Positions 55,997-61,382 of a DNA stretch of 64,000 nt are shown here, one piece after another. The notes below the pieces were generated by a model. It was not told the origin of the DNA. It was given only the letters and a program-made list of their open reading frames with translations, and ran no database searches. The stretch is from sequence record MT478991.1; one strand, written 5' to 3'. The translations under genes were made by a program, and so were the position numbers. This DNA is from Escherichia phage vB_EcoM_011D4. How positions within the stretch are numbered: position 1 is the stretch's first letter; each line of letters begins with the position of its first letter.

Positions 55997-56386
55997 TTAC
56001 AAGTCTAACGTATTTTGATGTATTCTGTCAACGGCAATTTGATAATATTTTTCGTCTTTCTCTATGCCGACAAAATTTCGATTTAAGTTTCGACACGCAA
56101 CACCAGTTGTTCCACTTCCCATAGTAAAATCCAGAACAGTTTCCCCCTCGTTGGTGTAAGTTTTTATCAGATATTCCATTAACTCTACTGGTTTCTGTGT
56201 TGGGTGCAATCCTCTTTCTTTACATCGACCGGAATAACTTACAATAGATTCTGGGCATTTGGTATCGTATGTTTTATTATTATAGCTTTGGTTTGTGACT
56301 AAAGGGATCGCCCCACTTTCATTTTTGTTGCTTCCTTTTTTAATTGGCTTGTCTCTTTTCGTCATTTGCGGATAATAAAGTGGCAT
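55997..56386 (-). CDS. DNA methyltransferase (N6-A/N4-C, beta class), C-terminal part after frameshift
   Basis: 129 aa; HPTQKPVEL and AdoMet motif FTMGSGTTG. Confidence 0.6.
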   Translation of the reverse strand: MPLYYPQMTKRDKPIKKGSNKNESGAIPLVTNQSYNNKTYDTKCPESIVSYSGRCKERGLHPTQKPVELMEYLIKTYTNEGETVLDFTMGSGTTGVACRNLNRNFVGIEKDEKYYQIAVDRIHQNTLDL

Positions 56387-56754
56387 TTTCCAGTTCTTGA
56401 AAATATGATAACATCTTCATGAATTTTTAACGGTTGTCGTTTTGCTTGAACAAAATTTGCCGCAAATTTTTTATCCCACACCCAAGAATAACAGAATCCG
56501 TTCATATTACTATGAATTAATGCCGTTGTGAATGGTTGAGACGCGGTCATGACAATGGCATTTTTAGGTTTAATTATTCTATTAATCGCCGCCCACATTT
56601 CAGTAAATGGTATAACACTATCCCATTTACACGCTGTTGTTCCATATGGAGGATCACAAAGAATTAAATCTACGCTTTCCGTTTCAATTTCTTTCATCAG
56701 TTCCAGACAATCCCCGTTCATCAACCAGATTTTGTCAGTTCTAACGTCATTCAT
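56362..56754 (-). CDS. DNA methyltransferase (N6-A/N4-C, beta class), N-terminal part before frameshift
   Basis: 130 aa; catalytic DPPY; overlaps the C-terminal ORF by 25 nt in another frame. Confidence 0.6.
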   Translation of the reverse strand: MNDVRTDKIWLMNGDCLELMKEIETESVDLILCDPPYGTTACKWDSVIPFTEMWAAINRIIKPKNAIVMTASQPFTTALIHSNMNGFCYSWVWDKKFAANFVQAKRQPLKIHEDVIIFSRTGKCHFIIRK

Positions 56755-56796: not shown

Positions 56797-58029
56797 TTAT
56801 ACTGCCATTTGAGCGGTGATCGCTGGATGGCTTTGATAGTTGTGGATTTTAAAGTCTTTCGGAGTCTTTGTCAATACCTCATCTAAAGATTTAAATTCCG
56901 GCAACTCAATTGTTGGTTTATCAAACGGAACACGGCTTAACTGTTCCATAACTTGATCAAAATGGTTTTTGTAAATGTGAGTATCTCCACCAGAGAAAAT
57001 CAGTTCTCCTACCTCAAGATCACACATTTTCGCTATGATGTGAGTTAACAGCGCATAGCTGGCAACATTAAAGGGCAAGCCCAAAAAGCTGTCTACGCTT
57101 CGCTGAAACCACATACAAGATAGTTTACCTTCATTGACGTAGAATTGCACGAAAGGATGACATACACCTAATACAGCATTATGTGTTCCTTGTACGTTCC
57201 ATGCGTCAATGATAATACGTCTATTATACGGATCATTCTTGATTAAGTCAATCACGTTTTGTAACTGGTCTTCCCAAATCTTCGGGCGATAGACATATTC
57301 TTCATCGTCTTTAGTGCTTGATGTGTCTACGTCCATACTAACAAAGATCGTGGTATCCGGTGCTATAATATCCCCACCCAGATAATCACTATCAAGCAGA
57401 TAACCGAAATAACCATCATCTACCCATTCCTGGAATCCCCACAAGCAATATGCATCATTAACAAAATTAGATTGGGTCTTCCAGTGATCTGCTACTAAGA
57501 ATTGATTATATTCAGAATCAAACTCTTCATAACGCATACCACGCCAGATAGCACATAAACGGTCTTCTGTTTCATTGGTTGGCGTAAAGTCTTCTACCCA
57601 CGGGTGTTTAAATGTATGTGTATATTTGCTATTAACGCGCTTAATTTTGATTTCACCATGTGGATGAATCGGTTTGCGTCGCCACGCCATACCATACATA
57701 TTGCCGACATTATAACCATTGAATCGCAAAGGATTCTTTTCTTTCATATCAAGACAGTTACCGCGCCAAATGTCAAAGGCTTCTTCGTCAAACTTACCGC
57801 GTGTAATTTCCTGTAAGCGACGGCGGTCAAGTGATCCTTCCATAAACCATAGCAACTCGCCAATTACAGAGGCTGTAGCCATCTTTTTAGTAGTCAGTAA
57901 GGGGAAACCCTTGCTTAAATCAATTCGCATCTCTGCACCGAATTTAGAGAGCGTACCGACCCCCGTGCGGTCTTCACGAGGCCAGCCATTATCAAGAACA
58001 TCACGCAACAGTTTCAAATATTCTTTCAT
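56797..58029 (-). CDS. td: thymidylate synthase with ~125-aa internal insertion
   Basis: 410 aa; ThyA motifs DRTGVGT, ELLWF, catalytic GVCHPFVQFYV, GLPFNVASYALL; extra segment between MYGMAWRR and DQLQNVIDLIKNDPYNRR. Confidence 0.85.
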   Translation of the reverse strand: MKEYLKLLRDVLDNGWPREDRTGVGTLSKFGAEMRIDLSKGFPLLTTKKMATASVIGELLWFMEGSLDRRRLQEITRGKFDEEAFDIWRGNCLDMKEKNPLRFNGYNVGNMYGMAWRRKPIHPHGEIKIKRVNSKYTHTFKHPWVEDFTPTNETEDRLCAIWRGMRYEEFDSEYNQFLVADHWKTQSNFVNDAYCLWGFQEWVDDGYFGYLLDSDYLGGDIIAPDTTIFVSMDVDTSSTKDDEEYVYRPKIWEDQLQNVIDLIKNDPYNRRIIIDAWNVQGTHNAVLGVCHPFVQFYVNEGKLSCMWFQRSVDSFLGLPFNVASYALLTHIIAKMCDLEVGELIFSGGDTHIYKNHFDQVMEQLSRVPFDKPTIELPEFKSLDEVLTKTPKDFKIHNYQSHPAITAQMAV

Positions 58030-60788: not shown

Positions 60789-61382
60789 TTACTTGTCAAA
60801 TACTTTATTAATTATATCTAACAACTTTGGTTTTCTATTTTCAAATTCTAACATTTCTTCGGGAGAAATATCAACTACTTCTGTTTTATGAAAGAAATCA
60901 GGATCTATTGCATCGGCAACAAAATTTCTAGCTAACGCAGCGGCCTTTTCGTAATCATAAAGACCTAGATACAAAAGTTTCCCTCTATCAACCTGAATAC
61001 ATGCTTTATATTTACCATCTCGTTTATAAAAACTTACTCCGATATACTCAGACGTCTTACCTTTTTGCTTTCCAACATTTCTTGAGTTTTGTTGGTCAGT
61101 CGCATCTCTCAAGTTTTCAATCCGATTATCGGTTATAACTCGGTTTACATGGTCAACACATTTTGGCATATATCCATGATGCATGAAGAAAATTATTCTA
61201 TGCTCTTTGTGCAATCGACCATCAAACTTAACTACTCTATATCCAATTCTTGGATTTACATAGCCCGCTCTAGATCCGACTTTATGCTTTCGGTTTGTCG
61301 ATATCTTGCGAATCAGCTTACCGTTATCATATTTAAAGAGTTCATGACAACGAGCATACAATTCAGGATCATATGTTTTCAC
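60789..61382 (-). CDS. HNH homing endonuclease with AP2-type DNA-binding domain
   Basis: 197 aa; HNH core HKEHRIIFFMHHG...VDHVNRVITDNRIENL; AP2-like YIGVSFYKRDGKYKA; inserted between 32 and 59. Confidence 0.75.
   Translation of the reverse strand: MKTYDPELYARCHELFKYDNGKLIRKISTNRKHKVGSRAGYVNPRIGYRVVKFDGRLHKEHRIIFFMHHGYMPKCVDHVNRVITDNRIENLRDATDQQNSRNVGKQKGKTSEYIGVSFYKRDGKYKACIQVDRGKLLYLGLYDYEKAAALARNFVADAIDPDFFHKTEVVDISPEEMLEFENRKPKLLDIINKVFDK

What the first reader, a model, noticed from the sequence alone, without database searches (positions are those of the whole stretch)
57310..57685. Thymidylate synthase carries a ~125-residue in-frame insertion
The td product is 410 aa versus about 265-290 for bacterial and T4 enzymes. 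The ThyA core is intact, but between MYGMAWRR and DQLQNVIDLIKNDPYNRR there is an extra segment of about 125 residues (KPIHPHGEIKIKRVNSKYTHTFKHPWVEDFTPTNETEDRLCAIWRGMRYEEF...YVYRPKIW) with no counterpart in E. coli ThyA or T4 Td. T4 td is interrupted at the DNA level by a group I intron; here the extra sequence stays in frame, so it is more likely an inserted protein domain than an intron. It lacks intein boundary residues.
Basis: partly seen in the sequence, partly recalled or inferred. Interest (0 to 1): 0.55.

Follow-up and report, generated by a model that had tools for sequence, protein, structure and literature searches.

The report
Decayed homing-element domain inside thymidylate synthase
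The extra 136 residues in this phage's thymidylate synthase are a translated, folded but decayed copy of a phage mobile-element (homing-endonuclease-like) domain; fuller copies of it have been swapped into thymidylate synthase genes of other phages together with flanking gene sequence, with no sign of splicing.

Summary
The td ORF (56797..58029, minus strand) encodes 410 aa. Residues 118-253 (57271..57678) replace the 10-residue loop 100-109 of E. coli ThyA, and every catalytic residue checked is kept. The segment is not an intron or an intein: Rfam and Pfam find nothing, it shows codon-level purifying selection (dN/dS 0.13-0.30), it tolerates an in-frame 4-codon indel, and AlphaFold2 folds it confidently.

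It is not new to this phage. All 58 matching Krischvirus (RB49-like) genomes have it, as do other T4-like lineages.

It is homologous to longer inserts (up to about 320 aa) at the same ThyA site in other phages, and to a large phage-only family of free-standing proteins. These carry AP2 or zinc-finger DNA-binding modules and are variously labelled HNH endonuclease or DNA-binding protein.

In two jumbo-phage genera, close relatives differ by presence or absence of the insert. The insert sits in a block of unrelated DNA that also replaces the flanking thyA codons, the pattern expected from homing with co-conversion.

The copy here has lost both DNA-binding modules and 15 of 25 family-conserved residues. 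Nuclease activity of the family is unproven. I found no published description.

The parts
56797..58029 (-). td gene: thymidylate synthase (ThyA type), 410 aa plus stop codon
   Evidence: ORF. Pfam PF00303 covers residues 2-410, E 1e-83. NCBIfam thymidylate synthase models match. 96% nt identity to RB49 td.
57679..58029 (-). N-terminal ThyA core, residues 1-117. It ends with the conserved MYGMAWR (Y112 = Ec Y94, R117 = Ec R99).
   Evidence: Alignment with E. coli ThyA and residue map. R21, E58 and W88 (= Ec W80) are kept.
57271..57678 (-). The insert, residues 118-253 (136 aa). It replaces the 10-residue loop Ec 100-109.
   Evidence: Homologous to longer ThyA inserts and to free-standing phage proteins. 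dN/dS 0.13-0.30. Confidently folded.
57640..57678 (-). First predicted strand at the start of the insert (RKPIHPHGEIKIK, residues 118-130). It is conserved in short and long ThyA inserts.
   Evidence: DSSP on the AF2 model gives strand E118-130. The motif P..P.G...I.R is shared with KP13-7, D69 and P0005. Pairing with the last strand into a ribbon is inferred, because no coordinates were available.
57517..57570 (-). Helix TEDRLCAIWRGMRYEEFD (residues 154-171). It is the remnant of the family's 'Y..W..ML.RCY' helix, with the Arg-Cys-Tyr lost.
   Evidence: Alignments. Helix H153-170.
57505..57516 (-). SEYN, residues 172-175. These four codons are present here and in RB49 but absent in Phi1, JSE, G2248, JK32 and P0002, an in-frame indel.
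   Evidence: The lengths 1221 versus 1233 nt appear.
57418..57459 (-). NDAYCLWGFQEWVD (residues 191-204). This highly conserved segment is typical of ThyA-embedded copies and is missing from most free-standing relatives.
   Evidence: Spacing of 21 residues in embedded copies versus 13 in free-standing ones.
57325..57399 (-). LLDSDYLGGDIIAPDTTIFVSMDVD (residues 211-235). This is the decayed counterpart of the family's 'LDKD..GNKIYSP.TC.F.....N' strand-strand-helix element. Lys, Tyr, Cys and Asn are lost, and the helix region is shortened.
   Evidence: Strands E210-213 and E228-231. The intact element is seen at residues 69-98 of the free-standing model.
57268..57297 (-). Last predicted strand of the insert, leading back into the core (YVYRPKIWED, residues 245-254). 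'RPKI(Y/W)' is conserved in long and short inserts.
   Evidence: Strand E245-254. Conservation.
56800..57270 (-). C-terminal ThyA core, residues 254-410, with the catalytic Cys290 (= Ec C146).
   Evidence: PDB alignment of residues 254-410 with Ec 110-264. R270/R271, C290, R310, D313, N321, H351 and Y353 are kept.

Best explanation
The segment is translated and folds as an autonomous domain that leaves and re-enters the ThyA core at one surface loop, through a long strand at each end. It descends from a phage mobile element: a homing-endonuclease-like gene whose product has N-terminal DNA-binding modules, a conserved central domain and a C-terminal AP2 domain. This element inserted in frame into thyA just after the conserved YG.QWR codons. 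It needs no RNA or protein splicing, because the host enzyme tolerates a folded domain at that loop. Fuller copies in other phages have been exchanged between genomes by gene conversion that carried flanking thyA sequence with them. In the RB49 group the element is fixed and has decayed: both DNA-binding modules and the polar conserved residues are gone, while the hydrophobic skeleton is kept. It most likely no longer cuts DNA. It probably persists because it is now part of the enzyme's fold and because it interrupts the site that related elements would target. Shown: translation, fold, homology, site identity, presence/absence with replaced flanks, decay, and purifying selection. Inferred: nuclease activity of the ancestors, the homing mechanism, the pairing of the two terminal strands, and the reason for retention.
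For: 1. Translated and not spliced. Rfam finds nothing. dN/dS of the insert is 0.13-0.30, against 0.04-0.13 for the core. There is an in-frame 4-codon indel. The AF2 model has mean pLDDT 94.3 and pTM 0.92, with the insert confident and bounded by strands 118-130 and 245-254.

2. The enzyme core is intact. All 12 catalytic and binding residues checked are conserved; only Ec W83 differs, being Cys here.

3. Homology of the insert. tblastn with the insert finds ThyA of jumbo phage KP13-7 (517 aa), Vibrio phage D69 (477 aa) and a free-standing Erwinia phage ORF. The long inserts hit PHROG families annotated as HNH endonuclease at E 1e-33 to 1e-14. A profile built only from free-standing proteins hits the window Td at residues about 167-243 with E 2e-4.

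4. The family is large and all copies sit at one site. Among 123 ThyA hits of at least 380 aa, about 95 have an insert of 125-320 aa at the Ec 99/108 site, and 73 of these match the free-standing profile.

5. Lateral transfer. KP13-7 and Muenster belong to the same genus. They are 96% identical in DNA up to thyA codon 91. There is then no detectable similarity for 998 nt in KP13-7, against 373 nt in Muenster, and 92% identity resumes from codon 424. ph0011 and CMSTMSU show the same pattern.

6. Decay. Long inserts keep 17-23 of 25 family-conserved positions, while the window keeps 10 and has lost R, C, K, Y, C and N. Spearman rho between protein length and retention is 0.52.

7. Phage-only distribution. 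A scan of genomes of 185,579 bacterial and archaeal species found two MAG contigs. The one I examined is phage-like; the other was not examined.
Confidence: 0.72

Rival explanations
1. Exapted accessory domain. Whatever its origin, the short insert now has a function of its own, for example binding nucleic acid or a partner protein of the phage nucleotide-synthesis complex. That function would be why it is conserved.
For: There is purifying selection on the insert (dN/dS 0.13-0.30). Sequence blocks such as DAYCLWGFQEWVD and GDI(I/L)APDT are conserved at 50-53% overall insert identity across lineages whose core is 61-72% identical. The fold is compact and confident. The short form is retained in at least three T4-like lineages.
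Against: The residues kept are mainly aromatic or hydrophobic (W, Y, W, F, L, P), as expected for a fold skeleton. The conserved polar residues of the family are lost, and both DNA-binding modules are deleted. The insert evolves 2-4 times faster than the core. Insert lengths form a continuum, as expected for decay. No candidate activity was detected by any library.
Confidence: 0.22
2. Still-active homing endonuclease. The window's Td itself cuts insert-less td alleles of co-infecting phages.
For: It is homologous to a family annotated as HNH endonuclease. Related long forms show signs of recent transfer.
Against: It keeps only 10 of 25 family-conserved positions and lacks R29, C30, K73, K81, Y83, C88 and N96 (P0012 numbering). 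The N-terminal module and the C-terminal AP2-like module are deleted. The PHROG match of the window insert is only E 0.083. The insert is fixed in all 58 matching Krischvirus genomes, so no empty targets remain within the genus.
Confidence: 0.03
3. Self-splicing element: a group I intron read through in frame, or an intein, removed from the mature product.
For: T4 td and other thyA genes are known intron hosts (background knowledge; references listed). Phage nucleotide-metabolism genes, including ThyX-type thymidylate synthase, host inteins.
Against: No Rfam match appears even at E up to 1, either here or in the long-insert loci. Selection acts at the codon level. There is no Hint domain in Pfam. 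The first insert residue is Arg or Lys, the residue after the insert is Asp, and no His-Asn precedes it. The in-frame translation is homologous to free-standing proteins and folds confidently together with the core.
Confidence: 0.01
4. Ancestral ThyA-specific domain. The insert arose within ThyA, and the free-standing proteins are derived from it.
For: Embedded copies share features that most free-standing ones lack, namely the roughly 8-residue NDAYCLWGFQ segment and the terminal strands.
Against: The free-standing family is far larger and more diverse: about 170 of the 180 hits of the insert profile and 85 BFVD structures. The family's conserved residues are shared by free-standing and long embedded forms and are lost only in short ones. 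The great majority of ThyA hits are of ordinary length: 14,465 hits in all, with inserts seen only among the top-scoring ones. Within two genera the insert comes with foreign flanks.
Confidence: 0.02

Closest known systems
ShiLan insertion element in actinophage DNA methylase genes (Arsenault, Gosselin & Gogarten 2025, PMC11855218)
   Same: It is a homing-type insertion inside a phage enzyme gene that is neither intron nor intein. It leaves the host frame open, has a sporadic distribution, and is thought to be tolerated as a loop of the host protein.
   Different: In ShiLan the HNH endonuclease is encoded in another reading frame, and the in-frame translation is unstructured with low model confidence. 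Here the mobile-element protein is itself in the host frame, is homologous residue by residue to free-standing proteins, and folds confidently as part of the host protein. The host gene and the endonuclease-like family are also different.
Inteins carrying homing endonucleases, including HNH-type ones in phage genes
   Same: They are in-frame insertions at conserved sites of nucleotide-metabolism enzymes. They spread by gene conversion and decay over time to 'mini' forms (background knowledge; for phage inteins).
   Different: There is no Hint splicing domain and no Cys/Ser/Thr or His-Asn junction residues (and the sequence itself). The insert stays in the mature protein, so tolerance comes from the insertion site and the autonomous fold rather than from excision.
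Free-standing HNH-AP2 homing endonuclease genes of T4-like phages, for example the window ORF at 60789..61382
   Same: The free-standing relatives of the insert have the same layout: variable N-terminal DNA-binding modules, a conserved middle domain with a strand-strand-helix element, then AP2. They are phage-only.
   Different: The middle domain is not detectably HNH. There is no PF13392 or PF01844 match, it has Lys instead of the catalytic His, and hhalign aligns only AP2. Free-standing genes lie between genes; this one lies inside a gene and is fused to it.
Group I intron of T4 td with I-TevI, and the thyA intron of Bacillus mojavensis with I-BmoI
   Same: Thymidylate synthase genes are recurrent targets of homing elements, which aim at conserved codons (background knowledge; Edgell et al. 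2004 is listed).
   Different: Those elements are RNA-spliced, use GIY-YIG enzymes, and sit at a different site further downstream in the gene (from memory, not tested here). Here there is no intron, and the site is the loop after Ec R99.
Lineage-specific length variation of ThyA, such as the 50-residue insert of Lactobacillus casei TS and the short inserts of eukaryotic and T4 enzymes
   Same: Surface regions of the ThyA small domain tolerate extra residues without loss of activity. The chain offsets show extra residues before Ec 110 in L. casei (+52) and T4 (+10).
   Different: Those inserts are 8-50 residues, are not homologous to mobile-element proteins, and are not polymorphic among close relatives. 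From memory, not tested here, the L. casei insert lies upstream of Tyr94, not in the 100-109 loop.
LAGLIDADG endonuclease genes fused in frame into mitochondrial rps3, and HNH-like insertions in animal cox2
   Same: These are endonuclease ORFs that insert into a protein-coding gene without an intron or intein (rps3 from memory; the cox2 case is PMC5374615, listed but not read in detail).
   Different: They have different endonuclease families, hosts and genome types. They usually sit near gene ends or split the gene, rather than forming an internal folded domain of an active enzyme.

Membership tests
Thymidylate synthase, ThyA type (PF00303) | Profile match over the whole fold | tested here: met
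   PF00303 covers residues 2-410, E 1e-83. TIGR03284 scores 279 bits against a cut-off of 108. PDB ThyA chains match at E 1e-69.
Thymidylate synthase, ThyA type (PF00303) | Catalytic Cys and the dUMP/folate-binding residues (Ec R21, E58, W80, Y94, R126, R127, C146, R166, D169, N177, H207, Y209) | tested here: met
   All are conserved in the alignment. Only Ec W83 differs, being Cys here. Enzyme activity itself was not testable.
Intein | Hint splicing domain; Cys/Ser/Thr (or Ala) as the first residue; His-Asn at the end, followed by Cys/Ser/Thr | tested here: not met
   Pfam gives no Hint or intein match for the window Td or the long forms. The insert begins with R/K-P and ends ...RPKIWE followed by D.
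Group I / group II intron | Ribozyme core detectable by covariance model; no codon-level constraint in the host frame | tested here: not met
   No Rfam match at E up to 1 in the window, and no intron match at E up to 0.1 in L001, L002, L005 or L007. dN/dS is 0.13-0.30 and the indel is in frame. Splicing itself is not testable with these tools.
HNH (beta-beta-alpha-Me) endonuclease superfamily | HNH profile match; catalytic His at the end of strand 1; Asn or His metal ligand in the helix | tested here: inconclusive
   Only PHROG families annotated as HNH endonuclease match (long inserts E 1e-33; window insert E 0.083). No Pfam HNH family matches. hhalign to a genuine HNH_3-AP2 protein aligns only AP2. 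The family has a strand-strand-helix element with invariant D-K-D and Asn at the position where HNH-AP2 proteins have theirs, but Lys replaces His. No PDB fold match. In the window copy both the Lys and the Asn are also lost.
Free-standing phage family (W..ML.RCY / LDKD / KIYSP.TC / N, with AP2) | Profile match and the 25 positions conserved in at least 90% of members | tested here: met
   A profile built from free-standing members only hits the window Td at E 2e-4. Homology is therefore supported, but only 10 of 25 conserved positions are retained, making this a decayed member.
Homing (site-specific mobile) element | Always the same target site in a conserved gene | tested here: met
   About 95 long ThyA proteins all carry the extra residues between Ec 99 and Ec 108.
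Homing (site-specific mobile) element | Presence/absence among close relatives, with co-converted flanks | tested here: met
   This holds for the long forms only. KP13-7 versus Muenster, and ph0011 versus CMSTMSU, show a block of unrelated DNA that contains the insert plus heterologous thyA flanks, set within genomes otherwise 78-96% identical. It does not hold within Krischvirus, where the insert is fixed.
Homing (site-specific mobile) element | Encoded endonuclease that cleaves the empty site | not testable with these tools
   No biochemical data were found for any member (literature searches). This needs cleavage assays.

The most novel reading that the evidence does not exclude
The long ThyA inserts may be a working, previously undescribed kind of selfish element: a homing-nuclease domain that lives permanently inside its host enzyme as an in-frame, unspliced domain. 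It would be expressed with the enzyme, and the ThyA dimer could present two copies to the target DNA. It would use a nuclease fold with no solved relative. The RB49-group insert would then be its domesticated end state, kept because it blocks re-invasion or has gained a role in the phage nucleotide-synthesis machinery.
Probability: 0.3. Interest if true: 0.8.

Novelty: new variant of a known kind. Interest (0 to 1): 0.6.

Why it matters
Homing endonuclease genes are thought to survive inside essential genes only if they are removed by RNA or protein splicing, or if they sit between genes. Here an essential-pathway enzyme carries the mobile-element protein as a permanent internal domain. The data contain a full series, from apparently intact copies (insert of about 260-320 aa, recently exchanged with their flanks between jumbo phages) to compact relics (about 125-150 aa) under purifying selection. 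That makes the invasion, fixation and decay cycle of a splicing-free element directly testable in culturable E. coli and Klebsiella phages.

There are practical consequences too. Td proteins of 400-610 aa are annotated inconsistently as 'thymidylate synthase', 'hypothetical protein' or 'HNH endonuclease'. The loop after Ec R99 is a proven permissive site for domain insertion in ThyA. The free-standing family is a widespread phage domain with no curated model and no solved structure.

Tried and rejected
- **Intron:** Rfam with permissive thresholds found no intron on the window region or on four related loci.
- **Intein:** there is no Hint domain, and the junction residues are wrong.
- **Curated domain libraries on the insert alone:** Pfam gave only a chance-level hit (CT_A_B, E 0.32). 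NCBIfam gave nothing. PHROGs gave a weak hit (E 0.083).
- **Testing the HNH label:** hhalign of the family against the window's genuine HNH_3-AP2 ORF aligned only AP2, so I do not call the domain HNH.
- **A trans-acting relative near td:** the RB49 'endonuclease' RB49p240 and the ORF next to P0002's td belong to an unrelated zinc-ribbon family. In the window, only the AP2 part of ORF 60789..61382 matches.
- **Hidden out-of-frame ORF, as in ShiLan:** no alternative-frame ORF longer than 41 aa lies on the coding strand within the insert.
- **Foreign base composition:** insert GC is 39.3%, against 41.8% for the core and 40.6% for the window, which is not informative.
- **Literature:** five full-text searches and six papers checked gave no description of the RB49 Td insert or of ThyA-embedded endonuclease-like domains. 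The RB49 genome paper of 2002 is not held.
- **Position of the insert in 3D:** I could not test this relative to the active site and dimer interface, because model coordinates are not exposed.

Full report
**What is there.** The window comes from an RB49-like (Krischvirus) T4-type coliphage. The 1233-nt td region is 96% identical to RB49, and 58 phage records match it over at least 80% of its length. The ORF at 56797..58029 on the minus strand encodes 410 aa. Pfam's thymidylate synthase model spans residues 2-410. Solved ThyA structures match in two blocks: residues 1-82 and residues 254-410, the latter aligning with E. coli 110-264.

In an alignment with E. coli ThyA, R117 equals Ec R99 and D254 equals Ec D110. 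Residues 118-253 (nt 57271..57678) therefore stand where E. coli has the 10-residue loop 100-109. All 12 catalytic and binding residues I checked are conserved (Ec R21, E58, W80, Y94, R126, R127, C146, R166, D169, N177, H207, Y209); only Ec W83 differs, being Cys here. Its coordinates are close at the high end and 39 nt short at the low end.

**It is translated, not spliced.**
- Rfam finds no intron here or in related loci.
- There is no intein domain, and the junction residues are wrong: R/K at the start, and ...KIWE followed by D at the end.
- Among ten td genes, the insert has dN/dS 0.13-0.30. That is two to four times the core value (0.04-0.13) but far below 1.
- Several Krischvirus genomes differ by a clean 4-codon indel inside the insert.
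- AlphaFold2, run with an alignment of 90 relatives, gives mean pLDDT 94.3 and pTM 0.92. The 10-residue blocks of the insert mostly average 92-98, with a dip to 72-84 over residues 161-180. The insert starts and ends with long strands (118-130 and 245-254), which probably pair as a ribbon carrying a helical and hairpin domain. I could not inspect the coordinates.

**It is a lineage feature.** All 58 matching Krischvirus records carry the insert at 90-98% aa identity. Td proteins of 401-418 aa, with the insert only 46-53% identical, occur on metagenomic contigs that have the T4-like order gene 59, gene 32, frd, td, nrdA.

**What the domain is.** tblastn with the insert alone also finds:
- ThyA of Klebsiella jumbo phage KP13-7 (517 aa);
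- a Vibrio phage protein annotated 'HNH endonuclease', which is in fact a 477-aa ThyA-type protein;
- a free-standing 125-aa ORF of an Erwinia jumbo phage.

The longer inserts share both ends with the window insert (P..P.G...I.R at the start, RPKI(Y/W) at the end). In addition they carry an N-terminal beta-rich module and a C-terminal segment. They match PHROG families annotated as HNH endonuclease at E 1e-33 to 1e-14, whereas the window insert reaches only E 0.083.

A profile of the inserts retrieves about 170 free-standing phage proteins of 120-380 aa. Their common core is 'Y..W..ML.RCY ... W..FSNF ... LDKD..GNKIYSP.TC.F.P..N'. Many end in an AP2 domain, and some begin with DUF723/DUF4379 zinc fingers. 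A profile built from free-standing proteins alone hits the window Td at E 2e-4, and the residue-level alignment is clear.

The family is common in viral proteomes: 85 BFVD models match at E of 0.001 or better, and they are named inconsistently. It is practically absent from cellular genomes. A scan of 185,579 species' genomes found two MAG contigs; the one I examined is phage-like, and the other was not examined.

**Is it a nuclease?** This is unproven. The domain sits where HNH sits in HNH-AP2 homing endonucleases. In an AF2 model of a free-standing member (pLDDT 95.1) it has a strand-strand-helix element with invariant Asp-Lys-Asp and Asn. Against that:
- Lys replaces the catalytic His.
- No Pfam or NCBIfam family matches.
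- hhalign to the window's own genuine HNH_3-AP2 ORF aligns only AP2.

I therefore call it homing-endonuclease-like, not HNH.

**Evidence for mobility.** An exhaustive phmmer search, followed by my classification of the hits, gave 123 ThyA proteins of at least 380 aa. About 95 of them carry 125-320 extra residues at exactly this site, and 73 of those match the free-standing profile.

Within the genus Alcyoneusvirus, KP13-7 has the insert and Muenster (309 aa) does not. Within Asteriusvirus, ph0011 (546 aa) has it and CMSTMSU does not. At the DNA level, KP13-7 and Muenster are 96% identical up to thyA codon 91. There is then no detectable similarity for 998 nt, against 373 nt in Muenster, and identity returns at 92% from codon 424. 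ph0011 and CMSTMSU show the same pattern, with 1195 nt against 483 nt. Inside the replaced block, the thyA flanks of KP13-7 resemble the Krischvirus type (65-85% aa) more than its own relative (30-55%). This is what gene conversion with co-conversion of flanks would leave. Who makes the break is not shown.

**Decay.** I took 25 positions conserved in at least 90% of free-standing members. ThyA proteins of 471-620 aa keep on average 18 of them (most keep 17-23). Those of 380-430 aa keep on average 10. The window keeps 10: it retains W, Y, W, F, L, D, D and P, and has lost the Arg-Cys-Tyr, the Lys of LDKD, Lys-Ile-Tyr, Cys and Asn. It also lacks the roughly 58-residue N-terminal module and the roughly 45-residue C-terminal segment seen in KP13-7. 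Embedded copies share a roughly 8-residue segment (NDAYCLWGFQ) that most free-standing ones lack. This suggests that one colonisation of ThyA was followed by spread among thyA genes.

**Interpretation.** The window insert is the fixed, decayed end state of an in-frame, unspliced mobile element of ThyA. It is probably no longer active. It is retained because it now folds with the enzyme and possibly because it disrupts the target site. A gained function cannot be excluded.

**Comparison with what is known.** The closest published case I found is the ShiLan element of actinophage methylases (PMC11855218). There, however, the endonuclease is encoded out of frame and the in-frame peptide is unstructured. 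I found no description of this ThyA insert. The sequence itself has long been public, as RB49 td.

Noticed in passing
window 55997..56754 (minus strand): Two overlapping ORFs (56362..56754 with a DPPY motif; 55997..56386 with PF01555 at E 1e-26) look like one N6/N4 DNA methyltransferase split by a frameshift. They lie between nrdA and td. This roughly 800-nt block is absent from all 51 Krischvirus records that match its edge; RB49 has td directly next to nrdA. The closest phage relatives are only about 59% identical in aa (Xanthomonas phages).
   Followed up: partly
window 60789..61382 (minus strand): A free-standing HNH_3 + AP2 homing-endonuclease-type ORF (197 aa) lies between gene 32 and gene 59. 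RB49 lacks it at this place and instead has a 485-aa zinc-ribbon-type 'endonuclease' between gene 32 and frd.
   Followed up: partly
L015 (phage JSE td) and L009:3001-4221 (P0002): The C-terminal core of td in JSE and in metagenomic P0002 is mosaic. dS is 0.78-0.88 there, against 0.11-0.57 in the rest of the gene, and the residues are typical of the P0009 lineage. This indicates recombination inside td between T4-like lineages.
   Followed up: no
L007:4689-7876: On a T4-like metagenomic contig, nrdA is split into two ORFs by a 237-aa ORF with a faint I-HmuI NUMOD-like hit. This is a 'gene in pieces' arrangement next to an insert-bearing td.
   Followed up: no
L020 / L018 (contig JBOFQK010000295.1, 'Culicoidibacterales' MAG): This contig is binned as bacterial but carries T4-type Rnl1, Rnl2, frd and a 476-aa insert-bearing td, so it is most likely a phage contig.
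   Followed up: partly
L002:2138-3571 (Vibrio phage D69): The protein deposited as 'HNH endonuclease' is a ThyA-type protein with a long insert. Its core motifs are unusually diverged (for example SLKDAHTY in place of GGDTHIY), so it may not be a standard dTMP synthase.
   Followed up: no
L003:2408-2785 (Erwinia phage pEa_SNUABM_49): This 125-aa free-standing ORF looks like a truncated copy of a 198-aa relative (P0004), so free-standing members of the family decay too.
   Followed up: no
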